IMG/VR virus record: IMGVR_UViG_3300035208_003871
Length of the DNA stretch: 61,733 nucleotides
Source of the DNA: a virus
Taxonomy: Duplodnaviria > Heunggongvirae > Uroviricota > Caudoviricetes
Direction: 5' to 3' (one strand)
In this document: piece after piece, positions 19,331 to 49,560 of the stretch
Position numbering within the stretch: the stretch's first letter is position 1
Layout of the letters: the number at the start of each line of letters is the position of its first letter
Notes under the pieces: generated by a model
Told to the model about the DNA's origin: nothing
The model's input: the letters and a program-made list of their open reading frames with translations, nothing else
Databases searched by the model: none
Translations under genes and position numbers: made by a program

Positions 19331-19440
19331 ACAATAGGTTGGGTTGACAAGGGTTACTTCATAAATCCTGAAAATTTAAACGAGACTGACCTTTCTAAAC
19401 AATTGGTCTTTAACACCTGAGTCAAATGATCTCCTGTTGT
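19331..19440 (+). ncRNA. Y-RNA-like module U1 with Ser(UGA) anticodon-loop mimic
   Basis: ACAATAGG TTGGGTTGACAA GGG TTACTTC ... CCT GAGTC AAAT GATCT CCTGTTGT; internal TAAAT-CCTGAAA-ATTTA. Confidence 0.8.
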
Positions 19441-19502
19441 AAAATCAAGATCGGAAATTGCAAAGTATTGGCAGGGAGGAACTAGACTCCCAAAAATTCA
19501 AA

Positions 19503-19591: not shown

Positions 19592-19734
19592 CCAAGCAGG
19601 TTGGGTTGTTGAGAGTTACTTCAATTGATTTGAAATCGATAGCCGGGAAAGGAGGGATGAAATTATAATGCCCGGATTTGTGACGAAATGTCATATTCCA
19701 CTCCAAAACTCAAAGCAATTGATCTCCTGTTTGG
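19592..19734 (+). ncRNA. Y-RNA-like module U2 with Ser(UGA) anticodon-loop mimic
   Basis: CCAAGCAGG TTGGGTTGTTGA GAG TTACTTC ... CTC AAAGC AATT GATCT CCTGTTTGG; internal ATTGA-TTTGAAA-TCGAT. Confidence 0.8.
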
Positions 19735-19754
19735 AAAGTTAAGTTCAGTTAAAA

Positions 19755-19910
19755 GTTCAGTTAGTGTAAAGGTATCATATTGGCATAAAAAGAAACTCTA
19801 ATCGACTGATCTCCCAATGTTCTTTGTGATGTTTTTTCATTGGGTTGGGTAGATGTGAGATACTTCATATACAGGGGCCGATGATGGTGGTTCGATTCCA
19901 CCACTGAACA
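19755..19910 (+). ncRNA. tRNA-like scaffold carrying permuted Y-like module U3 in place of the anticodon loop
   Basis: GTTCAGT/ACTGAAC, D arm, TTGGC/GCCGA, GGTGG TTCGATT CCACC; 92 nt insert 19785-19876 has the 3' motif strand before the 5' strand. Confidence 0.8.
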
Positions 19911-19912
19911 TT

Positions 19913-19977
19913 TGATAGGTTGGGTAGTAAAGGGTTACTTCAAGGTTTTAGTCCCGATACAGACTGATCTCCTATCA
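19913..19977 (+). ncRNA. Y-RNA-like module U4 (minimal)
   Basis: TGATAGG TTGGGTAGTAAA GGG TTACTTC ... CCC GATAC AGACT GATCT CCTATCA. Confidence 0.8.
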
Positions 19978-23219: not shown

Positions 23220-23339
23220 GCCAGTTTAGCAGAGTAGGAATGCATCCGGCCTGTATTTCAGATGTTCACAAAAAGTGAACAGATAGTAAAAAGTGAACAG
23301 GATACCGGAAGATCGGGGGAGCATAACCCTCAACTGGCT
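23220..23339 (+). tRNA. tRNA-Thr(TGT) with canonical 37/38 BHB intron (23256-23303), C33
   Basis: TCCGG/CCGGA stem; BHB central helix CCTG/CAGG, 3 nt bulges, TTCA/TGAA intron helix; U73. Confidence 0.85.
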
Positions 23340-23340
23340 C

Positions 23341-24172: not shown

Positions 24173-24173
24173 T

Positions 24174-24262
24174 TCGCCTGTAGCCTATAGGACTAAGGCA
24201 CCTGACTTCTAAGTTTATACGAAGATATCAGGATGAGGCGGGTTCAATTCCCGTCAGGCGAG
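24174..24262 (+). tRNA. tRNA-Arg(TCT) with 15 nt BHB intron (24212-24226)
   Basis: CCTGA/TCAGG stem; central helix CTTC/GAAG with 3 nt bulges. Confidence 0.88.
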
Positions 24263-24264
24263 TA

Positions 24265-28841: not shown

Positions 28842-28954
28842 ACTGAAAGGTTGGGTTGATAAGGGTTACTTCGGTATTTATGGTTCGAATCCATGACTCT
28901 CTGATCAGGGAGTATAAAAGACAAAACACCTGAGTCGAAAGATCTCCTTTCGGT
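28842..28954 (+). ncRNA. Y-RNA-like module U5 with YrlA-type T arm and loop-closed acceptor stem
   Basis: Motif strands as in U1; inside TATGG TTCGAAT CCATG then ACTCTCT-GATC-AGGGAGT (7 bp). Confidence 0.82.
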
Positions 28955-28973
28955 TTAAGTTTTTAAAAAAGTT

Positions 28974-40437: not shown

Positions 40438-42843
40438 ATGAACAACCCTTCTTCAAATAACTCAGATAACAAAGAAATAGACAAAAATCAGATTTGGATC
40501 TTAGAAGAAGCTTCATATCGTGTAAAACAGGGTCAACCAATCGTGCTTCTTTTCTCTCGTAATTACTGCAACAATAAAGAAACGGTTACTCATGAAATTC
40601 ATGGATTTAGACCATATTTTTATGCACCAATAAACGAAAAACCTGATTTACCTGCCGGTTGCGAATATTCAGAAGAAATTACAAAAGATGCTCTTGGCCG
40701 TGATGTTCGTAAAGTATACACTGATATTCCATCAACAGTACGAAAAGTGCGTGAACAATACAGTTTCACATGCATGGCAGATTATTTATTTGAAAAACGG
40801 TGGATGGCAGATAACAAAGTCTTTTACGCTTATCAATGGGTAAATAATCAAGCTATTCCAGTCGAAATAGAAGATGTAGTAAAACCACGCATCCTCTATG
40901 TAGACATAGAAGTATTATCGCCACAAGGTATATTTCCCGAACCTATAGAATCAAAATTTCCCGTAGTAAGCATTCAGATGCTCGATAGTTACACTAACGA
41001 CATAACTGTATTAACTGCTGGAAATCTCTACGTAGATGGAAAAAAATACAATATACCCCAAACTGATGCTGAAGATCACATCGCATGTAAATCAGAAGAA
41101 GAACTATTCAAAGTATTCCAAGAATACATAAAAATAACAGATCCGGATCTCATCACAATGTGGAACGGGGATAAGTACGATTTACCATACTTAATTAGGC
41201 GGGCCAGCAACCTCAAAATAAGCATCAGTGGATTGGGTAGATTGGGTAGACCAATGGCAATATACGAACCCGGTGATGATAAATTCAATCTTCGTATTCC
41301 CGGACGATCCACTCTCGATATGATGTCTGCATTCAAAGTTTTCTATAAAAAGAAAGCGCAGCGCGAAAGTTACGATTTAAAAACAGTTTCGGCAGATTAT
41401 GGATTCCCATATGCTGATTACGGTTACAAATTGGCAGAAGTTCTCGGTAACAAAGATTATGTAACCTTTCTTCAATACTGCCGTAATGATGTTATAGCAC
41501 TGAAAAACATCGATGATAAAGTTGGATTATTTAACTTTTATGAAACCCTACGCAAAATCGCCGGTTGTAAACTTGATAACACACTCCACAATTCCGTAAT
41601 CATCGAATCCCTGTTAGTAAAATATGATATATTACCAATGCCTACTAAAAATCGAAATCTCGCACCAGTAAACTTCGAGGGAGCACTTGTATTAACACCA
41701 CCTTGTGGTATATTTGAAAATGTCGGCACCGTAGATCTTGCAGCTCTATATCCAACCGTAATGCGTGCATTTCCGGGAAGATGTTGTCCTGATGCTTACA
41801 TGAAAGTTGTAGAAGTTCTCGAACTTGTAGTGGATGAACGTGAACGATATCGGGCAATAAATAAAACGGATGAATCGACAGATCTCACAGAACTTATAGA
41901 ATACATTTACAAAGTTTTAGCAAACAGTTTTTACGGAGCACTTGGTCTTCAATCTTTCAGATTATTCAAAGAATCATGCGCATCATCAGTGTGTGAAATC
42001 GGGCGTGATGTTGATCGATTTGTTCATTCAAAATTGCGTTCGTATGGTAAGTCTGTTTTGTATTCTGACACTGATTCGAGTTTCTTTTCTCAATTAGAGA
42101 CCGTAGAAGAGGGATTGGATATACAAGAAAAGTTGAATAAAGATCTCATTGAATGGGGAGAACAAAAAGGTGCTCGTGTACATTTTTCATTAAAATTCGA
42201 AAAACTCTATGATCGTATATTATTCAAAAAAGACACCGATTATAAAAAGAAGTATTCTTGGGACGACGATGTAGGTAAGAAAAAGAAATACATTGGTAAA
42301 CTAAAGTGGAAAGAAGGTAAGGATGCAGAATACCTGCGAGATCATGGTGAAGAACTCAATTTTATGGGATTAGAGCTTGTCCGATCAGATAACTCGAAAT
42401 TTACTAAACAAATCCTTCGTGAATTCTTCAACATTGTATTAATGGATGGTGATATCGATAAAGCATCGCAGTACATACGTGACTCTTATCAAAAAGCAAA
42501 AACCGGTCAAGTAGATTACCGTGACATTTCTATCCCCAAAGATGTTCGCAAAGTATCAAAAACCGACAATCCATGGAAACGAGGAATAGAAAACACCAAA
42601 AATACATTCAATTACATTATCCCAGACGGAACAAAACCACGTCTTATATTCGTAAAAGATTATCCTTATGAATTCTGCATAGACGATGAAATAGACATTG
42701 GAGAATGGAAAGAAAAAATAGATTGGGATACCATGCTTGATAAAACCGTCACTAAAAAACTTAAAACATATGCTGAATCTGCAGGTATATCATGGGATCG
42801 ATTTGTTCATGGTCAACAAACCATTGATCAATGGTTCAAATAA
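40438..42843 (+). CDS. polB: Family B DNA polymerase with 3'-5' exonuclease
   Basis: VDIEV, WNGDKYD, DLAALYP, KVLANSFYG, YSDTDS, GLELVRSD. Confidence 0.95.
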   Translation: MNNPSSNNSDNKEIDKNQIWILEEASYRVKQGQPIVLLFSRNYCNNKETVTHEIHGFRPYFYAPINEKPDLPAGCEYSEEITKDALGRDVRKVYTDIPSTVRKVREQYSFTCMADYLFEKRWMADNKVFYAYQWVNNQAIPVEIEDVVKPRILYVDIEVLSPQGIFPEPIESKFPVVSIQMLDSYTNDITVLTAGNLYVDGKKYNIPQTDAEDHIACKSEEELFKVFQEYIKITDPDLITMWNGDKYDLPYLIRRASNLKISISGLGRLGRPMAIYEPGDDKFNLRIPGRSTLDMMSAFKVFYKKKAQRESYDLKTVSADYGFPYADYGYKLAEVLGNKDYVTFLQYCRNDVIALKNIDDKVGLFNFYETLRKIAGCKLDNTLHNSVIIESLLVKYDILPMPTKNRNLAPVNFEGALVLTPPCGIFENVGTVDLAALYPTVMRAFPGRCCPDAYMKVVEVLELVVDERERYRAINKTDESTDLTELIEYIYKVLANSFYGALGLQSFRLFKESCASSVCEIGRDVDRFVHSKLRSYGKSVLYSDTDSSFFSQLETVEEGLDIQEKLNKDLIEWGEQKGARVHFSLKFEKLYDRILFKKDTDYKKKYSWDDDVGKKKKYIGKLKWKEGKDAEYLRDHGEELNFMGLELVRSDNSKFTKQILREFFNIVLMDGDIDKASQYIRDSYQKAKTGQVDYRDISIPKDVRKVSKTDNPWKRGIENTKNTFNYIIPDGTKPRLIFVKDYPYEFCIDDEIDIGEWKEKIDWDTMLDKTVTKKLKTYAESAGISWDRFVHGQQTIDQWFK

Positions 42844-42949
42844 AAAAGGGGCGTTCACTTCGTTCACTAAACCCATTAAACCCCTAATAAAATAAATATA
42901 AATTTTTATATCATACATTAAACAAATCTTGATATACAATAAACATCTA

Positions 42950-43027
42950 TACTTAACGTACCCCACAGTAACAAGACTCGCAAGAACAGGAAACCTATTT
43001 CTTCCTGTTTTTTGTTTTGTTCAGACT
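42950..43027 (+). ncRNA. Hairpin small-RNA unit, copy 3 of 5
   Basis: TACTTAA, 13 nt, AACAAGAC/GTTTTGTT, AAGAACAGGAA/TTCCTGTTTTT, GTTCAGACT overlapping the stop of the convergent gene. Confidence 0.6.
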
Positions 43028-43842
43028 GATTTGTCGGTGATGCGCAGTTTGGTATAATATTGATGGTAGTCGGGTGTGCGATCTGGGATTTCGGCCAAAC
43101 TTCTCCCGCGAACAATTAAGTCATCTCTGATTTTGCAAAGCATCTCATATCTAATTTGTATACCAAATTTGAGTCGTATAAATCCGTCATTTTGCTCTTC
43201 GAGTTTTTCTAATAAATCTAACTGAGATTGCGATGCTGTATCACGCTGATTGCACCCTGCTTCTTTTGCAGTTTTTCCAAATATAACTACATTTAACATA
43301 TCCGCTTCTGTAGCATATACCAGCCATTTCATTTCGTCCGGAACATCATATAACAAATGGTCTTTAATCGCGTCAGTCATACCCTTATACTTTAACTTAG
43401 TTGCCTCGCGCCGCGCCCACCATTGCGGAACTTTATAATAATCTAAATGTTTTCCAAATGTCTTGATAACATATCTTTGAAAATCTGAAACTTTTTCACC
43501 CACGGTTGGATCTTCCATGCGAGATGGTGTTATCTTCATTAAGTACATCGTCATACCATCACGAGTTAAACACTTTAGTTTAACTTTACCACTCTTTGAA
43601 GTGGTTGACGTAACGTATACCACTGTAGAAAACTCACTAAATTCATTTTTGCCTCTTGAAAGGATTTTAGATTGGGTATCTTTATTAATTCCAAGTGCTT
43701 TTGAGATATCTGCTACCGGGATAACCCATCCCATATCAGCGGTGCATATGAACCGCACTGGTATATTAAAGACTTCTCCTTCAATCATAAGTGGATCACC
43801 CGTTCTCAATGAGTGATCTTCTGCTCGTGTTATATCGAACAT
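43021..43842 (-). CDS. BRO/Rha-type antirepressor-like DNA-binding protein
   Basis: VADISKALGI N-domain; TDAIKD...EADMLNVVIFG...NQRD C-domain shared with 45784..46503. Confidence 0.7.
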   Translation of the reverse strand: MFDITRAEDHSLRTGDPLMIEGEVFNIPVRFICTADMGWVIPVADISKALGINKDTQSKILSRGKNEFSEFSTVVYVTSTTSKSGKVKLKCLTRDGMTMYLMKITPSRMEDPTVGEKVSDFQRYVIKTFGKHLDYYKVPQWWARREATKLKYKGMTDAIKDHLLYDVPDEMKWLVYATEADMLNVVIFGKTAKEAGCNQRDTASQSQLDLLEKLEEQNDGFIRLKFGIQIRYEMLCKIRDDLIVRGRSLAEIPDRTPDYHQYYTKLRITDKSV

Positions 43843-43911
43843 ATATACATGTAGTTTTATTAGAATAAATGTTCACTTATAGTCCATTACTTAAAATTTA
43901 CAAATGCGAAA

Positions 43912-43920
43912 CTTTTAAAT
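43912..43920 (+). promoter_or_regulatory. TATA-like box upstream of the Y-like RNA/tRNA/Ro60 locus
   Basis: TTTTAAATA about 30 nt before U6. Confidence 0.5.
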
Positions 43921-43941
43921 ACTTGCGCGTTGACCTATTGT

Positions 43942-44023
43942 ATGTCAAAACAGGTTGGGCAGCAAAGGGATACTTCAATGAAAATGAAACAAAGCCCGAT
44001 GCGACTTGATCTCCTGTAGACAT
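43942..44023 (+). ncRNA. Y-RNA-like module U6 with Phe(GAA)-like 7 nt loop
   Basis: ACAGG TTGGGCAGCAAA GGG ATACTTC ... CCC GATGC GACTT GATCT CCTGT; TTCA-ATGAAAA-TGAA. Confidence 0.82.
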
Positions 44024-44030
44024 TAATATT

Positions 44031-44167
44031 GGGATGGTAGCTTAGCCCGGTAGAGCGCATAAATTTCTCTAATCGCTTGACCTCTAATAAGCAATTATTA
44101 GCTGGGTAGATGTGAGTTACTTCGATTTGTAATCGTGAGATCGAGAGTTCGAATCTCTCCCGTCCCG
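44031..44167 (+). tRNA. tRNA-Thr(TGT) interrupted at 28/29 by permuted Y-like module U7 (44060-44122)
   Basis: Removing 63 nt restores CACGA-TT TGT AA-TCGTG in a perfect cloverleaf; insert = 3' motif strand, GCAA tetraloop, 5' motif strand. Confidence 0.85.
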
Positions 44168-44181
44168 TAAATTAAGTCTAC

Positions 44182-44189
44182 TTTTTTTT
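44182..44189 (+). terminator. Oligo-T archaeal terminator candidate
   Basis: T8 tract right after the tRNA and before the Ro60 leader. Confidence 0.5.
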
Positions 44190-44225
44190 GGAGATCTGCC
44201 CGCGACCTGCAGTCAGGAGTGCAGC

Positions 44226-45752
44226 ATGTCAACATTTAACAAGAAGGTTTCTACCTCAAAAAAGTTAGAATCGCACCCAAGTGCAACAAAGAACCACGAG
44301 GACGCACTTGCATTTAAGATGTCACCAAAGCTCGATCTGTACACTAGAGTAGCAACATGTCTCTATGGTCAGGACAAATTTTACGTAACCGGAAAGCAGG
44401 CAGACTCCGAACTTCAGTCAGTTCTGTCAACGGTAATCGCAGAAGATCCAAAGTTTGTTCTTGATCTTGCAAAGTATACCCGCAATAAATTGTACCTCAG
44501 GTCGGTTCCACAGGTGTTACTTGCAGAAGTTTTCAATCAGTCACCCGGAACTGTTGGTGCATACAAGTATGTTCCTGAAGTAGTGAAACGTGCAGATGAA
44601 ATCACCGAGGTGCTCGCTTACCAGTTAAACAGAAATGCTGCAACAGGGACACGTGGTGATGGTCAGAAGAAGATTCCCAAGTCACTACAGAAGGGACTTC
44701 GACTCGCAATGCAGAACTTCGGAGAGTATCACTACGCTAAGTACAACAAAGATGGCGAAGTTACCTTCAAGGACGCAATGACACTCGTGCGACCAAAGCC
44801 AAAAGATTCTGCACAGGCAGCAATCTTCGAAAAACTCGTAAATGGCGAGTCGCTTCCAATCCCGGATACATGGGAGATGATCACCACAATAAAGGGATCA
44901 AACAAAGCAAGTTGGGAAGAGGCCGCAGAAAAGACTCCGTACATGGCTACAATTAGGAATTTAAACAATTTCCTTCGGAATGATATCGGGAACCTCGATG
45001 TTGTAATTGATCGTCTTACCAATGAGGCACAGGTTCTCAAATCAAAACAGCTTCCGTTTAGGTTCTACTCTGCATATCGCGAGATCCAGAACAATGCCAA
45101 GGATAGCAGAACAAATAAGGTTCTTGATGCAATCGACACTGCTATGGAAATCTCAATAAAAAATGTTCCAAATGCAGGTGGAAAAACCGCTGTGCTTGTG
45201 GATCTTTCAGGGTCAATGCAAAGCAAAGTATCTGGAAAATCAACCGTTAGCATGAGAGAAATCGCATCTGTCTTCGGTGCAATATCTTCAAAGGTCTTCG
45301 ATGACTGCGTATTCTACGGATTCGGTGACACTTCCAAGGTAATTCCGCTTTCGAAGAGAAGTTCAATCATCGATAATGTCGAAAAAATCAACCAGACAAA
45401 TGTTGGATGTTCAACAAATGCGCATCTACCAGTCCTTGACATGATAAAAAATGGCACCGATGTAGATCGCATAATCCTGTTCAGTGATATGCAGTGCTAT
45501 AACAGCGGATATAGTGGAACATCCAGCGGATATTCATATGGATACGATGTAACACCAGCATTCTTCGACTACCGCAAGAAAGTAAATCAGAACACAAAAC
45601 TGTATTCCATCGACCTCACCGGATATGGAACTGTCAAGTGGCCCGAAAACACTCGTGGTATCTACACAATCAGTGGATGGAGCAACAGCATCTTCAACTT
45701 CATCGATGCAGTAGAAAAGGGTGAGAAGGATATCCTTTCCCTCATCAATTAA
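44226..45752 (+). CDS. rsr: Ro60/TROVE-domain RNA-binding protein with C-terminal vWA
   Basis: LYLRSVP, KRADEITE, KYNKDG...KDAMTLVRPKP, PDTWE, YMATIRNL, QLPFRFYSAY, VDLSGSM, ILFSDMQ. Confidence 0.93.
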   Translation: MSTFNKKVSTSKKLESHPSATKNHEDALAFKMSPKLDLYTRVATCLYGQDKFYVTGKQADSELQSVLSTVIAEDPKFVLDLAKYTRNKLYLRSVPQVLLAEVFNQSPGTVGAYKYVPEVVKRADEITEVLAYQLNRNAATGTRGDGQKKIPKSLQKGLRLAMQNFGEYHYAKYNKDGEVTFKDAMTLVRPKPKDSAQAAIFEKLVNGESLPIPDTWEMITTIKGSNKASWEEAAEKTPYMATIRNLNNFLRNDIGNLDVVIDRLTNEAQVLKSKQLPFRFYSAYREIQNNAKDSRTNKVLDAIDTAMEISIKNVPNAGGKTAVLVDLSGSMQSKVSGKSTVSMREIASVFGAISSKVFDDCVFYGFGDTSKVIPLSKRSSIIDNVEKINQTNVGCSTNAHLPVLDMIKNGTDVDRIILFSDMQCYNSGYSGTSSGYSYGYDVTPAFFDYRKKVNQNTKLYSIDLTGYGTVKWPENTRGIYTISGWSNSIFNFIDAVEKGEKDILSLIN

Positions 45753-45783
45753 CTTTTTTAACATAATCAACTCATATAATTAT

Positions 45784-46503
45784 ATGAGTGATACATTTCT
45801 CATACCATTTACATTCGATGGTGAACCAATCGATATGGTAATGTTAGATGATTTAACTGTTGGTTTTACTACCCATCATCTTGCAATTGCACTAGATACA
45901 GATGAAAAATACATTAAGCAATTATTGCAGCGGAATCACGAATTATTCGATGATTCTACCTTTCGCTGCAAGATGCATCATTTGGGAGCAATGCGAGTAA
46001 TTACCTGTTTAAAGAAAGATGCGGTCATAACTTTAGTAACACTCCTTGATTATCATAGATATCCGGAAAATAAGAAACAGCGCATAATTTCATTCAGGAA
46101 GTGGTCATCGAAAGTTATTGTTGATGTGATAGAAGGTAAGATTAGTGATGATGTTATCACATGGATTGCTGAGCGAAAAATAGCAAAAATGCTTTATCAC
46201 ACTCTCACTGATGCAGTTAAAGAAAAATGTGTTCCAGAAAATGCAAGTGAAAAAGAGAAACGTATGATTTATGGAAAAGAAGCTAATCTCATTAATTTGG
46301 TTGTATTTGGTAAGAAAGCAAATGGTGTAAATCAGAGAAATACAGCCACATCTGATCAATTAAGGTGTTTGAATAGGTGTCAGGGTGTATTGCCCGGATT
46401 GGTTCTTGCAGACATTCCATACAACAGACGGCTTGAAATTTTGCAGGAAGTTGTCGATAAGATTGTTATTGAATCAATGGATGATCAAAAGCAACTTTCA
46501 TAA
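45784..46503 (+). CDS. Antirepressor-like DNA-binding protein, paralogue of 43021..43842
   Basis: TDAVKE...EANLINLVVFG...NQRN C-domain. Confidence 0.7.
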   Translation: MSDTFLIPFTFDGEPIDMVMLDDLTVGFTTHHLAIALDTDEKYIKQLLQRNHELFDDSTFRCKMHHLGAMRVITCLKKDAVITLVTLLDYHRYPENKKQRIISFRKWSSKVIVDVIEGKISDDVITWIAERKIAKMLYHTLTDAVKEKCVPENASEKEKRMIYGKEANLINLVVFGKKANGVNQRNTATSDQLRCLNRCQGVLPGLVLADIPYNRRLEILQEVVDKIVIESMDDQKQLS

Positions 46504-46638
46504 ACTTTTATGATTAATATATAAGTGAACAGATCCGATTGTTACGAATTGCATTGAAGTGGATCCACACTTCATCGCCACCTATTTTTTAACTAATCCT
46601 CGATAACATTATATAAAGATACAACGCATTTTATACTC

Positions 46639-46848
46639 ATGAGCTCGTTCGACAAGCCAATGGTTACTGATAAAGCCAGAGAAGAAATGCAAAAAAATCA
46701 GGAAAACCCAACTCCCGGTTTTTTTAACAAAGTCAGAGCAGCGGGACGCGACATTGTAGTTAAATGTAAAGCACTCTGCGGATACAAAACCGAAGACACA
46801 ACCGAAGGCGACTGTGGATTCACTACTGGTGATTGTGATGGTAAGTAA
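46639..46848 (+). CDS. Hypothetical protein
   Basis: 69 aa ORF overlapping the next gene. Confidence 0.55.
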   Translation: MSSFDKPMVTDKAREEMQKNQENPTPGFFNKVRAAGRDIVVKCKALCGYKTEDTTEGDCGFTTGDCDGK

Positions 46849-47569
46849 GTTTATACTACTTTCGATTATACTACTCTCAATGATCGCACTCCCGGTAATG
46901 GCAACTGACTCAACCTCACACATAGAAACCAGTGGAACGGCTGGATCAGTCATTTCTTCGGGTGTAAGTGAAGTTGAGGTATCGGTTGGTGGCACTTATA
47001 ACAGTATTAGCTCAAGTAGAAAAATGCTTACCCTTGGTAACACAAAATTTACCACAAATCAGAACAGCACCAGCAAATATCACAACACACTCGATTCAAG
47101 TGATGAAGTGGAATTTGCCGATTTAGCAATCATAACTGATTCATACGGTATGGAAGATGCCAAGGATTCAACCGGTAAGTACAGTTATTTAGCTGACGAT
47201 TCAACATCATCCGAGCAGAAAGTAAATGCCGAGTTTATCCAGATGGGATCAAATGGCGGCAGGTATAAGAGCGCCGGAGTTGTGGACGATGCAAACATTA
47301 CCACAAGCATGAGAGCAGAAGGTAACGCGGGATCAGTAACTGCAAAATACGCCTCGACAACCGCATCAAGTTTGATTGCAGGTAGCACGACTCCCAATTA
47401 CCAGAAGAATGAGTATGGTTCAGTTACATGGCTCAACAAAAATGACACCGGTTACGATGCAGCATTCGATTGGGTTTGGAAAGATTTCAGCGTCCCATTC
47501 GAAATCATTAACAACACCACAAGTGCGAATGTCACTAATGAGAGTGTAAACATCACTCCCGCTTATTAA
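46838..47569 (+). CDS. Secreted S/T-rich beta protein
   Basis: Signal peptide MVSKFILLSIILLSMIALPVMA; several N-x-S/T sequons. Confidence 0.7.
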   Translation: MVSKFILLSIILLSMIALPVMATDSTSHIETSGTAGSVISSGVSEVEVSVGGTYNSISSSRKMLTLGNTKFTTNQNSTSKYHNTLDSSDEVEFADLAIITDSYGMEDAKDSTGKYSYLADDSTSSEQKVNAEFIQMGSNGGRYKSAGVVDDANITTSMRAEGNAGSVTAKYASTTASSLIAGSTTPNYQKNEYGSVTWLNKNDTGYDAAFDWVWKDFSVPFEIINNTTSANVTNESVNITPAY

Positions 47570-47652
47570 TTTTTATACTGATAAATGAGATGTCATTATA
47601 TGTCATCTCAAAAACCTTTACATTTTTATAGATGTAAACCACATTTTATTTC

Positions 47653-47850
47653 ATGTGCAATTCACGCAAATTTACAAATAATATGGCTACGACTCTTGAA
47701 ATGGTGGAAAAAGACAATAAATTCCTCAGAAAAGAAGTGCAGTTATTGCGAGAAGAAATAGATTTATTACGAACAAGAATACCACCCTGTCCTTGCGGAT
47801 TTATTGAAACAAAATATTGCAATATAATATCAGACGACACGGAGGATTAG
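47653..47850 (+). CDS. Small coiled-coil protein with CPC motif
   Basis: Heptads followed by PPCPCG. Confidence 0.55.
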   Translation: MCNSRKFTNNMATTLEMVEKDNKFLRKEVQLLREEIDLLRTRIPPCPCGFIETKYCNIISDDTED

Positions 47851-47873
47851 ATCACATCCCGGCTTAAAAGTTT

Positions 47874-47954
47874 AGTCTAACAAAGAAAAGAAAGAAAGAG
47901 AAAGATTATTTTCTCTTCCTGCTTGTTCTTTGTGTTTGGGTGTGTCGTTAAGTA
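47874..47954 (-). ncRNA. Hairpin small-RNA unit, copy 4 of 5
   Basis: Minus strand: TACTTAA, ACAAAGAA/TTCTTTGT, GGAAGAGAAA/TTTCTCTTTC, ends GTTAGACT. Confidence 0.55.
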
Positions 47955-47999
47955 AAAACTTAACAATATAATATTGACTTTTCAACTATAAAAAAGTTA

Positions 48000-48203
48000 T
48001 TAGTAATGTCTAGATGACAAAATTTGACCGTTTTGAATGGTATAATATGGATTTTTGTCACCAAGTCCCTTGTCGAGAACGATAGTGTAGGTGTTATTTC
48101 CTTCTGCTTCGTTTCTATCAACTTCACCAATGATAAATGCTGCGTCTTCTCTTGATTCTCCAGCAACTAACCAAATACGTCCTTCTTCGTTAATTTTTCT
48201 CAT
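48000..48203 (-). CDS. Hypothetical protein
   Basis: GGAG leader on the minus strand. Confidence 0.55.
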   Translation of the reverse strand: MRKINEEGRIWLVAGESREDAAFIIGEVDRNEAEGNNTYTIVLDKGLGDKNPYYTIQNGQILSSRHY

Positions 48204-48206
48204 AAT

Positions 48207-48452
48207 TTACTCCTTAATGAAAATTCCTTTTAGTGCGGCATAGTGTGCCGATGCTTTCTTTCCTACCTTGATCAGTTCTTCATCAGTGAGGTTTTTGTCA
48301 GCAAATCCGTCTTCAAATGCAGCAAGTCCTTCTAAATAAGGAACTACTACACCTGCGGCTTGTTTTAATCTTACACTTTGGATATATGTTGTGACAATAC
48401 CGATGAGGGCAACCACGGTTGGAATAATTACGTTGAGCTCCATTCCTTCCAT
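48207..48452 (-). CDS. Small membrane protein
   Basis: N-terminal TM helix VIIPTVVALIGIVTTYI. Confidence 0.6.
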   Translation of the reverse strand: MEGMELNVIIPTVVALIGIVTTYIQSVRLKQAAGVVVPYLEGLAAFEDGFADKNLTDEELIKVGKKASAHYAALKGIFIKE

Positions 48453-48534
48453 GTATCTATCTTATATTATTTCCCATTTAATATAATATAAGTTTTATAC
48501 AAAGGTTAATAAAGTAAATTAACAATTATTATAT

Positions 48535-49560
48535 ATGAATCCTTTTGTATCAGTTTGTATATCTACTTTTAATCGATGTGATCAATTGGAAATAGCAGTA
48601 GAATCAATATTGCGACAAGATTATCCACATTTAGAACTTGTAATATATGATAATGCAAGCAGTGATAATACCCCAGAATATCTTACTAAATTATCTGAAA
48701 AATACCCAAATATAAATGCAATATGTAGAAAGGTTCCAAATCGAAATGCAATGCAGACACTGAATCAAACATTCAGGGCATCTCGTGGAGAATACATATT
48801 AGTTTTAGATGATGATGCATATCTCCCAGATACAACAACAATATCAAAATTAGTAATTGCAATGGAAACTCATCCTGACGCGGCAATAGTTGGAGCAAAT
48901 GTTCAGGCAGCTAATGGAGATTGGCAAATGCCTATTCGAACAGTAGACGGTTTATTTGTACCATCGTGGCAAATTGGAAACATGGGAACATTTAAATACT
49001 TTGAATTTCATGGAGCTTGCGCATTATTTAGAAAAAGTTTTGTTCAGGAAATTGGATATTATGATGAAAGTTTCATGATTTACATGAATGAACTCGATCT
49101 CTCCACTCGTGTACTTGCAATGGGATTTAATGTTTATATATGCGCTGATGTAATCGCAATTCATACTGGAGTTGGTGATAAAAATGCATGTACAAAAAAG
49201 GTTTATTATTTCATTAAAAATTACAACACTGTTATAACACGAACATTTACAAGTGTTTATAAACGATTAACGGGAGTTTTGTTACATTCTTTTATGAGTG
49301 GTGGATATTATTTTGAAAGAATAATGATTCATAAAACTTGTAAATCGAGATTTGTTGTATTTAAATTTCTGTATTATTTAACTAAAATACTGTGTATTGG
49401 GATATATAGATCGTTTTTTCCTGATAAGAATTATCGATTTGATATATCATTTCAGCGCATATACGAAAATTCAATGTATAATGGATTTAAGCGATGTGTA
49501 ACTGATAGATTACTTTGGTTCATTAATCGTAAAGATACAACATCAAAGGGTGTACGATGA
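48535..49560 (+). CDS. GT2-family glycosyltransferase
   Basis: VSVCISTFNR, YDNASSD, LVLDDD, YDESFMIYMNELDL. Confidence 0.9.
   Translation: MNPFVSVCISTFNRCDQLEIAVESILRQDYPHLELVIYDNASSDNTPEYLTKLSEKYPNINAICRKVPNRNAMQTLNQTFRASRGEYILVLDDDAYLPDTTTISKLVIAMETHPDAAIVGANVQAANGDWQMPIRTVDGLFVPSWQIGNMGTFKYFEFHGACALFRKSFVQEIGYYDESFMIYMNELDLSTRVLAMGFNVYICADVIAIHTGVGDKNACTKKVYYFIKNYNTVITRTFTSVYKRLTGVLLHSFMSGGYYFERIMIHKTCKSRFVVFKFLYYLTKILCIGIYRSFFPDKNYRFDISFQRIYENSMYNGFKRCVTDRLLWFINRKDTTSKGVR

What the first reader, a model, noticed from the sequence alone, without database searches (positions are those of the whole stretch)
44031..44167. tRNA-Thr(UGU) split at position 28/29 by a circularly permuted Y-like module
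Seen: deleting 44060-44122 gives a perfect cloverleaf (CACGA-TTTGTAA-TCGTG). The 63 nt insert is the family motif in reversed order: the 3' strand, CTAATAA-GCAA-TTATTAG closed by a GNRA tetraloop, then the 5' strand. I could not draw a strict bulge-helix-bulge at these junctions, whereas the two ordinary introns in this window have perfect BHBs. Established: YrlA RNAs are permuted tRNA mimics whose ends lie in the Ro stem. Inference: this gene is the complementary permutation, with tRNA ends and a closed Ro stem. It could be (a) an aminoacylatable Ro-tethered tRNA chimera, (b) an unusual intron that releases a circular Y RNA, or (c) an evolutionary intermediate between tRNA and YrlA. A second, conventional Thr(UGU) gene at 23220 would free this copy from decoding.
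Basis: partly seen in the sequence, partly recalled or inferred. Interest (0 to 1): 0.88.

Follow-up and report, generated by a model that had tools for sequence, protein, structure and literature searches.

The report
tRNA carrying a built-in Ro60 handle
Just upstream of this archaeal virus's Ro60 gene lies a complete tRNA-Thr-shaped RNA gene with a hairpin-closed Y-RNA-type module inserted in its anticodon stem; related viruses and phages keep the same layout, so it is most likely one Ro60-partner RNA rather than a tRNA with an intron.

Summary
Removing 44060-44122 leaves a cloverleaf that ARAGORN calls tRNA-Thr(UGU). The 63-nt insert is the window's Y-like module in reversed strand order, closed by a 7-bp/GCAA hairpin. 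Its junctions have no bulge-helix-bulge, whereas the window's two ordinary introns do.

The gene is not an assembly artefact: an independent landfill run carries it without a difference.

It is not a one-off. All five closest Ro60 homologues (46-77% identity) have the same chimera directly upstream of Ro60. A covariance model also finds it beside Ro60 in distant viruses: Halovirus HGTV-1 (annotated there as "tRNA-Asp + intron"), a Bacteroides crAss-like phage, Xanthomonas phage Alcala and tmRNA-bearing phages.

Covariation across 18 members supports every helix of both the tRNA and the module. No member has a BHB, and several infect bacteria, so splicing is unlikely.

Best reading (about 0.7): a Y RNA in natural tRNA order, the topological complement of YrlA. 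It would be processed like a tRNA and would dock Ro60 through the side arm. Anticodon loops look genuine but change identity on a conserved body, which favours display over decoding.

Earlier notes of this scan flagged tRNA-order Y RNAs on other DNA. I found no published description. Ro60 binding, expression and charging are untested.

The parts
43913..43921 (+). candidate archaeal TATA box (TTTTAAATA), about 30 nt before the plain Y-like RNA U6
   Evidence: Read from the sequence. Similar TTTATATA/TTTATAA boxes stand at the same distance in L001-L004. This is an inference; there is no transcript data.
43950..44017 (+). U6, a plain (non-permuted) Y-like RNA: outer stem ACAGG/CCTGT, 5' strand GTTGGGCAGCAAAGGGATACTTC, 3' strand ..ACTTGATCTCC
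   Evidence: Orthologous copies occupy the same position in L001-L005.
44031..44059 (+). 5' part of the tRNA body: acceptor 5' strand 44031-44037, D arm 44040-44056, positions 26-28 at 44057-44059
   Evidence: acceptor and D helices covary.
44060..44066 (+). 5' linker TAAATTT (family consensus (T)AAAAT)
   Evidence: Alignment A3.
44067..44083 (+). First strand of the module, equivalent to the 3' strand of plain Y-like RNAs: CTC-TA-ATC-GCTTG-ACCT
   Evidence: helices 4-6 covary; the 3'-strand HMM hits this position in relatives.
44084..44101 (+). Closing hairpin CTAATAA-GCAA-TTATTAG; it stands where the free 5'/3' ends of a normal Y RNA would be
   Evidence: L001 has CCAGTTA-GCAA-TAATTGG at the same place. 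Length and loop vary in other members.
44104..44116 (+). Second strand of the module, equivalent to the Y RNA 5' strand: GGGT-A-GAT-GT-GAG
   Evidence: It resembles the 5' end of M. smegmatis YrlA..UUGGUGAUGUGAGCCG, as given by the T7 primer in PMC4201824.
44117..44122 (+). 3' linker TTACTT, part of the family-wide G(T/A)TACTTC; its TTAC fits the conserved YUAY of YrlA
   Evidence: YUAY is described in PMC4201824.
44123..44137 (+). Anticodon hairpin CGA-TTTGTAA-TCG plus TG (positions 42-43); anticodon TGT at 44128-44130
44138..44167 (+). Variable loop, T arm (GAGAG-TTCGAAT-CTCTC), acceptor 3' strand and discriminator G; no encoded CCA
44182..44189 (+). Oligo-T run, a candidate archaeal terminator, 15 nt after the chimera
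   Evidence: T-rich runs follow the chimera in L001 and L003-L005. Inference only.
44226..45752 (+). Ro60 orthologue (TROVE + Ro60 vWA domains)
   Evidence: Pfam. PDB sequence search: Thermus phage phiLo Ro60 (9KOP/9L5Y) E 2e-32 over the full length; also Xenopus, human and Deinococcus Ro60.
19755..19910 (+). U3, a second tRNA scaffold with the same permuted module, but with no anticodon hairpin
   Evidence: Model R1, 63.9 bits; sequence.

Best explanation
44031-44167 encodes a single, unspliced chimeric RNA of about 137 nt (plus CCA). It is a Y RNA built in natural tRNA order.

Inferred biogenesis: it is transcribed together with the plain Y-like RNA U6 from an archaeal promoter and ends at the oligo-T run. 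RNase P and tRNase Z cut at the tRNA ends, which would also create the 3' end of U6, and CCA is added.

Structure supported by covariation: the RNA folds into a normal tRNA body. The anticodon stem is a three-way junction. Pairs 27-28/42-43 stack on the 29-31/39-41 anticodon hairpin. Between positions 28 and 29, linkers of 7 and 6 nt carry a bulged, hairpin-closed helix of the Y-RNA type.

Inferred function: the Ro60 protein encoded 59 nt downstream docks on that arm. The tRNA body and its exposed anticodon loop are then the effector or bait part of the particle. They would link Ro60 to tRNA-recognising factors such as processing or repair enzymes, synthetases, or host tRNA-targeting defence nucleases. 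They would not serve as a routine decoder.
For: Adjacency. The Ro60 gene starts 59 nt after the chimera.

Conservation near Ro60. All five closest Ro60 homologues (46-77% identity, from five other metagenomes) have plain Y-like RNA(s) followed by the same chimera directly upstream of Ro60. Model R1 finds strong matches (above 55 bits) beside Ro60 in 8 of 14 IMG/VR viral loci with only 32-42% Ro60 identity. It also finds the chimera in Halovirus HGTV-1, Bacteroides phage PhiCrAssBcn24 and Xanthomonas phage Alcala.

Specificity. In whole-record scans of those three genomes, every match of 119 nt or more lies within 2.9 kb of the Ro60 gene. All other matches are ordinary tRNAs.

Covariation. On 18 members, 93% of cells pair, against 64% in shuffles and 40-47% with slid partners. 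The covariation score is 0.78 against about 0.12. All nine helices, including the three module helices and both halves of the split anticodon stem, show double changes.

No splice signal. No BHB exists at any junction that would restore a tRNA, while both control introns pass. Three of 18 members give no clean anticodon arm on excision, and in a fourth (U3, which has no anticodon hairpin) the arm obtained is artificial.

Bacterial hosts. tmRNA genes lie in L138 and L140, and cultured Bacteroides and Xanthomonas phages carry the chimera.

Not an artefact. An independent landfill contig covers 43600-44457 with 0 differences, and three further DNA runs hold all sampled words.

Precedent. M. smegmatis YrlA is cut by RNase P and receives CCA in vivo. 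The YUAY motif and a 5' strand ending in GAUGUGAG match this module (PMC4201824).

Display rather than decoding. U7 and L003 share a homologous body and G73 but carry Thr and Asn loops. L004 and L005 have near-identical bodies but different loops. U33 and R37 are kept in 14 of 14 reducible members.
Against: There is no RNA evidence at all: no transcript, no ends, and no proof that the insert is retained.

Ro60 binding is inferred only from synteny and resemblance. The bacterial GNCGAA(N)G motif is absent, and no Rfam Y-RNA model scores, even at E up to 10.

For the single sequence, the nearest-neighbour MFE fold (-41.7 kcal/mol) is an alternative structure. The proposed fold evaluates at -27.6 kcal/mol.

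The alignment used for pair counts was fitted to the model, so the counts lean towards it.

Excision gives a clean tRNA with a realistic anticodon loop in 14 of 18 members, which is what an intron would predict. This window has no canonical tRNA-Thr otherwise.
Confidence: 0.7

Rival explanations
1. It is a real tRNA-Thr(UGU) gene with a non-canonical intron at 28/29. The host or a viral factor excises the insert and ligates the exons to give a decoding tRNA. The released insert, linear or circular, is the actual Y RNA that binds Ro60.
For: Precise removal of 63 nt gives a perfect cloverleaf. The same holds for 14 of 18 family members, always at 27/28-28/29, with U33 and a purine at 37. The virus uses BHB splicing elsewhere. 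No canonical tRNA-Thr is called in the window. The HGTV-1 homologue is annotated as 'tRNA + intron'.
Against: No junction has the BHB geometry: central helix 0-3 of 4 pairs, and once 4 of 4 but with no flanking helices. The same chimera sits in phages of bacteria, which are not known to have a splicing endonuclease. Three members, and also the crAss-like copy with its 9-nt loop, cannot yield a canonical tRNA. Anticodon identity changes on an unchanged body. At 63 nt the insert is far too small to be self-splicing.
Confidence: 0.13
2. The tRNA part is only a processing handle. It recruits RNase P and tRNase Z to cut the U6-U7 precursor and define the ends of the Y RNAs, and it has no function of its own in the mature particle.
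For: Plain Y-like RNAs in this window begin a few nucleotides after tRNA genes: U1, U2 and U5 after tRNA-Leu, tRNA-Leu and tRNA-Phe, and U4 after U3. U6 ends 7-13 nt before the chimera's 5' end.
Against: A processing handle does not need an anticodon hairpin with U33 and R37 kept in 14 of 14 members, nor a module placed inside the tRNA. Ordinary flanking tRNAs already do that job elsewhere in the window.
Confidence: 0.1
3. It is a dead tRNA gene disrupted by insertion of a mobile Y-like element, with no function.
For: tRNA finders do not call the intact gene. The MFE fold is not a cloverleaf.
Against: The architecture is conserved, with compensatory changes in every helix, across Ro60 identities from 32 to 100% and across archaeal and bacterial viruses.
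Confidence: 0.03

Closest known systems
YrlA, the bacterial and phage Y RNA of Ro60/Rsr (Chen 2014, PMC4201824; Wang 2018, 10.1101/312249)
   Same: It is encoded beside Ro60. It has a bulged Ro-type helix plus a tRNA-like domain with canonical D/T elbow nucleotides. A YUAY motif follows the Ro 5' strand, and the 5' strand resembles the M. smegmatis YrlA 5' end. M. smegmatis YrlA is even opened by RNase P and receives CCA.
   Different: The topology is the complement. Here the RNA ends lie in a 7-bp acceptor stem and the Ro helix is closed by a hairpin. A full anticodon hairpin is present, which YrlA lacks. UUACUUC stands where YrlA has GNCGAA(N)G. No Rfam model detects it.
D. radiodurans Yrn1 and the plain Y-like RNAs of this virus (U1, U2, U4-U6; L004 3688-3800)
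   Same: They share the same handle (GGYTGSG..TACTTC / ..ATCTCC). Some carry D, anticodon-like and T hairpins in tRNA order inside the loop.
   Different: In those RNAs the Ro stem takes the place of the acceptor stem and holds the ends, so no RNase P/Z-type ends are expected.
Archaeal tRNA genes with non-canonical BHB introns, including introns that carry a functional small RNA (from my own knowledge, e.g. the C/D box RNA in the tRNA-Trp intron of Haloferax)
   Same: An insert at a non-canonical position whose removal restores a tRNA, in an archaeal virus that otherwise uses BHB introns.
   Different: There is no BHB or relaxed BHB at the junctions, and homologues exist in bacteriophages.
Halovirus HGTV-1 gene 136, annotated 'tRNA-Asp (gtc) + Intron' (KC292026 70440-70571)
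   Same: It is a homologue (47.9 bits with R1, GCGUUACUUC motif), on the same strand as the TROVE gene 129 and 2.8 kb upstream of it, in a cultivated archaeal virus.
   Different: It is annotated as an intron-bearing tRNA. The anticodon loop AUCUGGA reads Gln(CUG), not Asp. It is further from Ro60 than in this window.
Phage Bas63 gp130, a Ro60-like protein that counters the Ppl defence (PhageMaP preprint, PMC11482910)
   Same: A Ro60-like phage gene next to 'tRNA' genes, which the authors guess may be Y RNAs. It gives a counter-defence role for a phage Ro60.
   Different: No RNA structure was described there. I did not examine that phage here.

Membership tests
Y RNA / YrlA (Ro60 partner RNAs) | Encoded next to a Ro60/Rsr gene | tested here: met
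   59 nt upstream of the TROVE+vWA_Ro60 gene. The same holds in more than 15 related loci.
Y RNA / YrlA (Ro60 partner RNAs) | The Ro-binding stem is formed by the RNA's own 5' and 3' ends | tested here: not met
   The stem is closed by the hairpin at 44084-44101, and the ends lie in the acceptor stem.
Y RNA / YrlA (Ro60 partner RNAs) | Conserved GNCGAA(N0-1)G (bacteria) or GGUCCGA (animals) in the 5' strand | tested here: not met
   The 5'-strand equivalent is CTGGGTAGATGTGAG-TTACTTC. No GNCGAA occurs outside the T loop (motif from PMC4201824).
Y RNA / YrlA (Ro60 partner RNAs) | tRNA-like D and T arms with the tertiary-pair nucleotides | tested here: met
   U8, A14, G15/C48, GG in the D loop, TTCGAAT T loop and G53-C61 are present. 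The D and T helices covary.
Y RNA / YrlA (Ro60 partner RNAs) | Detected by the curated Rfam Y-RNA/YrlA models | tested here: not met
   cmscan of 42800-48600 at E up to 10 gives only a sub-threshold tRNA hit. No Y-RNA family is found in 19 related loci.
Y RNA / YrlA (Ro60 partner RNAs) | Physically bound by Ro60 | not testable with these tools
   The complex predictor takes no RNA. This needs EMSA or RIP.
Archaeal intron-containing tRNA | Bulge-helix-bulge (or relaxed hBH/HBh') at the two junctions | tested here: not met
   U7 scores H 1/4, h 0, h' 0. No family member passes, while both control introns score 4/4 with both flanks.
Archaeal intron-containing tRNA | Excision restores a canonical cloverleaf | tested here: met
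   ARAGORN calls tRNA-Thr(tgt) after removal of 44060-44122.
Archaeal intron-containing tRNA | Confined to hosts that have the splicing endonuclease | tested here: not met
   Homologous chimeras occur in Bacteroides and Xanthomonas phages and in tmRNA-bearing phages.
Decoding tRNA-Thr(UGU) | Anticodon identity matches the tRNA body and is stable among orthologues | tested here: not met
   The orthologous bodies in L003 and L001 carry Asn GUU, and L002 carries Ile GAU. The body is at most 66% identical to any tRNA of the window.
Decoding tRNA-Thr(UGU) | Aminoacylation by ThrRS | not testable with these tools
   The discriminator is G; the window's other Thr-like gene has T. This needs a charging assay.

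The most novel reading that the evidence does not exclude
The chimera is a mature, CCA-ended and possibly chargeable tRNA that permanently carries Ro60. Its genuine-looking anticodon loop is the working part. It would act as a bait or decoy for host factors that read anticodon loops, such as tRNA-targeting defence nucleases or modification enzymes. Viruses would re-programme it by swapping the loop on a fixed body (Thr, Asn, Ile, Cys, Gln, His, Gly, Lys among relatives). This would make viral Ro60-Y RNPs a programmable counter-defence or tRNA-protection device shared by archaeal viruses and phages.
Probability: 0.25. Interest if true: 0.88.

Novelty: new variant of a known kind. Interest (0 to 1): 0.72.

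Why it matters
Y RNAs are known to tether Ro60 to effectors, and YrlA is known as a circularly permuted tRNA mimic with no anticodon loop and usually no free CCA end. This gene, and the family it belongs to, shows the opposite solution: a true tRNA layout with an intact anticodon arm and a Ro-type docking arm grafted into the anticodon stem.

The layout is conserved from archaeal tailed viruses to crAss-like gut phages. That has three consequences:
- It gives candidate RNA partners to the many viral, and perhaps Borg and Asgard-virus, Ro60 genes for which none has been named.
- It shows that some 'tRNA + intron' or unannotated regions in virus genomes are mis-read.
- It bears on how Y RNAs arose from tRNAs.

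It also offers cultivated systems (HGTV-1, crAss001-type phages, Xanthomonas phage Alcala) in which the function of a viral Ro60 particle can be tested directly.

Tried and rejected
- Searching IMG/VR with the single Ro60 protein and with an exact 21-mer of the module found nothing.
- A loose DNA pattern returned 120 loci that were almost all chance hits. Model R1 confirmed none of L007-L126 as a chimera.
- RNA evidence: no RNA holder is listed. The 'RNA-Seq' wastewater runs X5-X7 are probably DNA and hold only short pieces. X5 has a 201-nt contig at 43828-44028 that stops 3 nt before the chimera's 5' end. Nothing can be said about expression, ends or splicing.
- The only 'joint' seen (X4, 44058 to 44137, with 15 other letters between) is an unrelated ordinary tRNA of another organism, not a spliced form.
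- A generic BHB scan with loose flanks gave many chance hits. Brute-force excision scored by ARAGORN was too permissive. I replaced both with a test restricted to junctions that restore a 5-bp/7-nt anticodon arm.
- The MFE alternative fold pairs tRNA positions 7-14 with UGAGUUAC. Tested on the alignment it gives 69% paired against 68% in shuffles, with no covariation, so I rejected it as the conserved structure.
- U7's tRNA body is not a recent copy of any tRNA in the window (59-66% identity).
- The two Wolin-lab reviews (PMC10870794, PMC6047535) are not held, so I cannot exclude that they mention tRNA-order variants.
- Complex prediction was not used because it cannot take RNA.

Full report
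**What is there.** The window is part of an uncultivated tailed virus of about 154 kb. It has more than 28 tRNA genes, two of them with perfect BHB introns, and archaeal-type TATA boxes.

At 44031-44167 the sequence reads: a 7-bp acceptor stem GGGATGG/CCGTCCC, a normal D arm, G26, then C27-A28. A 63-nt insert follows (44060-44122). After it come CGA-TTTGTAA-TCG-TG, a 5-nt variable loop, a canonical T arm (GAGAG-TTCGAAT-CTCTC) and discriminator G.

ARAGORN and Rfam do not call the intact gene. After the insert is removed, ARAGORN calls tRNA-Thr(tgt). The ORF that starts 59 nt downstream (44226-45752) is a Ro60 orthologue. It has TROVE and Ro60-vWA domains. Its best solved relative is the Ro60 of Thermus phage phiLo, E 2e-32 over the full length.

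**The insert is the virus's Y-like module turned inside out.** The window has five plain Y-like RNAs (19332-, 19594-, 19913-, 28844-, 43948-). Each has a 5' strand GGTTGGG..(A)AGGG-(T/A)TACTTC and a 3' strand ..(C)TGATCTCC, held by a variable outer stem.

In the insert the order is reversed:
- first CTC-TA-ATC-GCTTG-ACCT, the 3'-strand equivalent;
- then a 7-bp hairpin with a GCAA loop, where the RNA ends would normally be;
- then GGGT-A-GAT-GT-GAG-TTACTT, the 5'-strand equivalent.

HMMs built from the two strands of the plain copies hit the chimeras of this virus and its relatives in the reversed order. U7's own first strand is too divergent to score. A second tRNA scaffold at 19755-19910 (U3) carries nearly the same module but has no anticodon hairpin.

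**It is real DNA and it is conserved.** Four DNA runs from landfill (two studies) and groundwater hold the stretch. An independently assembled contig covers 43600-44457 without a difference.

The five closest Ro60 homologues (77, 72, 63, 47 and 47% identity by alignment, five other metagenomes) all show the same layout: PolB, a promoter, one or two plain Y-like RNAs, the tRNA-module chimera, then Ro60.

A covariance model of the six chimeras (R1) finds further examples:
- full-length matches of 50-89 bits beside Ro60 genes of only 32-42% identity in IMG/VR (L127, L129, L130, L133, L134, L138 with three in tandem, L139, L140);
- three cultivated viruses: Halovirus HGTV-1 (47.9 bits, the gene annotated 'tRNA-Asp (gtc) + Intron'), Bacteroides phage PhiCrAssBcn24 (53.9 and 33.5 bits, unannotated) and Xanthomonas phage Alcala (33.6 and 28 bits).

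Scanning those three whole genomes, every match of 119 nt or more lies within 2.9 kb of the Ro60 gene. All other matches are ordinary tRNAs of 70-84 nt.

**Structure.** On the 18-member alignment, 93% of cells pair. Shuffles give 64% and slid partners give 40-47%. The covariation score is 0.78 against about 0.12. All nine helices carry compensatory double changes: acceptor, D, T, both halves of the split anticodon stem, and the three module helices. That alignment was fitted to the model, which inflates the counts somewhat. However, the hand check on the MAFFT alignment of six sequences already showed the same compensations.

RNAfold prefers another fold for the single sequence, at -41.7 kcal/mol against -27.6 for the proposed structure. 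Its main helix pairs tRNA positions 7-14 with UGAGUUAC. On the alignment that helix is no better than shuffles, 69% against 68%, and does not covary.

The picture is a normal L-shaped tRNA whose anticodon stem is a three-way junction. The 3' strand (39-43) is continuous. The 5' strand is interrupted between 28 and 29 by two conserved single-stranded linkers, (U)AAAAU and UUACUU, which carry the Y-type arm.

**Intron or not.** On each strand the BHB rule is: 4 nt of central helix, then 2 bulge nt, the cut, then 1 bulge nt. The window's two ordinary introns obey it perfectly: CCTG-TA|T with CAGG-AT|A, and CTTC-TA|A with GAAG-AT|A, each with flanking helices.

For U7 the sites are AGCG-CA|T and TTAC-TT|C, which give one possible pair of four and no flanks. 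I restricted the test to junctions that restore a 5-bp/7-nt anticodon arm in the correct register. Fourteen of 18 members can be reduced in this way, always at 27/28-28/29, and none has a BHB. Three members give no such arm, and U3, which has no anticodon hairpin, gives only an artificial one.

Several members belong to bacteriophages, whose hosts are not known to have the splicing endonuclease: tmRNA genes lie in L138 and L140, and the hosts of the cultured examples are Bacteroides and Xanthomonas. The crAss-like copy has a 9-nt 'anticodon' loop. I therefore rate the intron reading at about 0.13.

**Relation to YrlA.** Wang et al. (10.1101/312249) give the YrlA order as AC-stem 5' strand, T arm, closed acceptor stem-loop, D arm, AC-stem 3' strand. 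YrlA has no anticodon loop and no CCA end, and 'resembles circularly permuted tRNAs'.

Chen et al. (PMC4201824) report three relevant points:
- M. smegmatis YrlA, which has a 7-bp acceptor stem, is cut by RNase P and gets CCA in vivo;
- a YUAY motif follows the Ro-proximal 5' segment;
- the T7 primer for M. smegmatis YrlA shows a 5' end ..CUUGGUGAUGUGAGCCG.

U7 has ..CUGGGUAGAUGUGAG-UUAC-UUC. This is the un-permuted counterpart of YrlA, with the ends at the acceptor stem and the Ro helix closed.

From memory only, not tested: human Y1 has GUAGUGAGUUAUCUC at the equivalent place.

**What the tRNA part is for.** The anticodon loops of the reducible members look genuine, with U33 and a purine at 37 in 14 of 14. 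Their identities are Thr (3 members), Asn (2), Gln (4), Ile, Cys, His, Gly and Lys; the HGTV-1 copy, which is outside this alignment, reads Gln as well.

Identity changes on a conserved body:
- U7 (Thr) and L003 (Asn) share acceptor, D and T arms apart from compensated changes, and share G73;
- L004 and L005 have near-identical bodies but loops TATTTGGAA and TTGCAGA;
- U7's body is not a copy of any tRNA in the window, at most 66% identity.

The plain Y-like RNAs also show anticodon-like hairpins right after TACTTC. U1's loop CCTGAAA equals that of the virus's tRNA-Ser(UGA). This pattern fits display of an anticodon arm better than faithful decoding.

Context in the literature:
- a phage Ro60-like protein (Bas63 gp130) counters the Ppl defence, and its authors guess that neighbouring 'tRNA' genes are Y RNAs (PMC11482910);
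- the crAss001 TROVE gene is an early gene (PMC8375218);
- Ro60 with a tRNA-like partner has been proposed as an RNA-repair platform in jumbo phages (PMC7824862);
- RNA ligase genes sit beside Ro60 in L002 and L006.

**Novelty.** In the searchable library I found Ro60 genes noted in Asgard viruses, Borgs, jumbo phages and crAss phages, without a partner RNA. I found the HGTV-1 gene described only as an intron-bearing tRNA. I found no description of tRNA-order, hairpin-closed Y RNAs. Two key reviews are not held.

Earlier notes of this scan (unpublished AI notes) had already flagged tRNA-order Y RNAs beside Ro60 in a cyanobacterium, in another archaeal virus and in phages. What is particular here is that the anticodon arm is kept rather than replaced, and that it is reprogrammed among relatives.

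I class the gene as a new variant of a known kind (Ro60-Y RNA/YrlA systems). Confidence is about 0.7 for the unspliced-chimera reading. Ro60 binding, expression, end processing and charging are all still inferred.

Noticed in passing
window 23220-23340: The second Thr(UGU) gene has a perfect BHB intron (23256-23303). After splicing, however, it has a T loop AGCATAA and C33, and neither ARAGORN nor Rfam calls it. No other tRNA-Thr is called in the window.
   Followed up: partly
window 24173-24263: ARAGORN's 'tRNA-Pyl(cta)' is really tRNA-Arg(TCT) with a 15-nt BHB intron (24212-24226). It is not a suppressor.
   Followed up: yes
window 19331-19445, 19592-19740, 19913-19975, 28842-28955: Plain Y-like RNAs start a few nucleotides after tRNA genes or after U3, so tRNase Z or RNase P cuts could define their ends. 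U1 shows the loop CCTGAAA of the virus's own tRNA-Ser(UGA). U5 carries a T-arm mimic, ATGGTTCGAATCCAT.
   Followed up: partly
L019 10563-10932 (IMGVR_UViG_3300022661_000062): Three tandem tRNAs carry inserts of 40-55 nt that share ACAGCAAG. This is a different insert family, and it matches the 'hairpin + ACAGCAA' RNAs noted earlier in this scan beside Ro60-like genes.
   Followed up: no
L141 971-1102 (HGTV-1 KC292026 70440-70571): The gene annotated tRNA-Asp(gtc)+Intron is a tRNA-module chimera. Its anticodon loop AUCUGGA reads Gln(CUG), so the annotation is probably wrong.
   Followed up: partly
L142 4440-5110 (Bacteroides phage PhiCrAssBcn24, downstream of the TROVE gene): An unannotated 0.9-kb gap holds two tRNA-module chimeras and at least two further TTACTTC-bearing elements.
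   Followed up: partly
L138 614-971 and L140 1-164: tmRNA genes lie within a few kb of the Ro60 gene and the chimera arrays in two large phage contigs.
   Followed up: no
L002 4430-5290 and L006 3318-4004: RNA ligase (PF09414) genes lie next to Ro60. This fits an RNA-repair context.
   Followed up: no
window 44037-44044 with 44113-44120: tRNA positions 7-14 (GUAGCUUA) are complementary to UGAGUUAC of the module. This drives the MFE fold and is kept in many members through sequence conservation alone. It could be an alternative conformer, but it shows no covariation.
   Followed up: yes
window 43828-44028: A 201-nt contig from a wastewater run labelled 'RNA-Seq' covers the promoter region and U6 and stops 3 nt before the chimera's 5' end. 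The run is probably DNA, so this is no evidence of processing.
   Followed up: no
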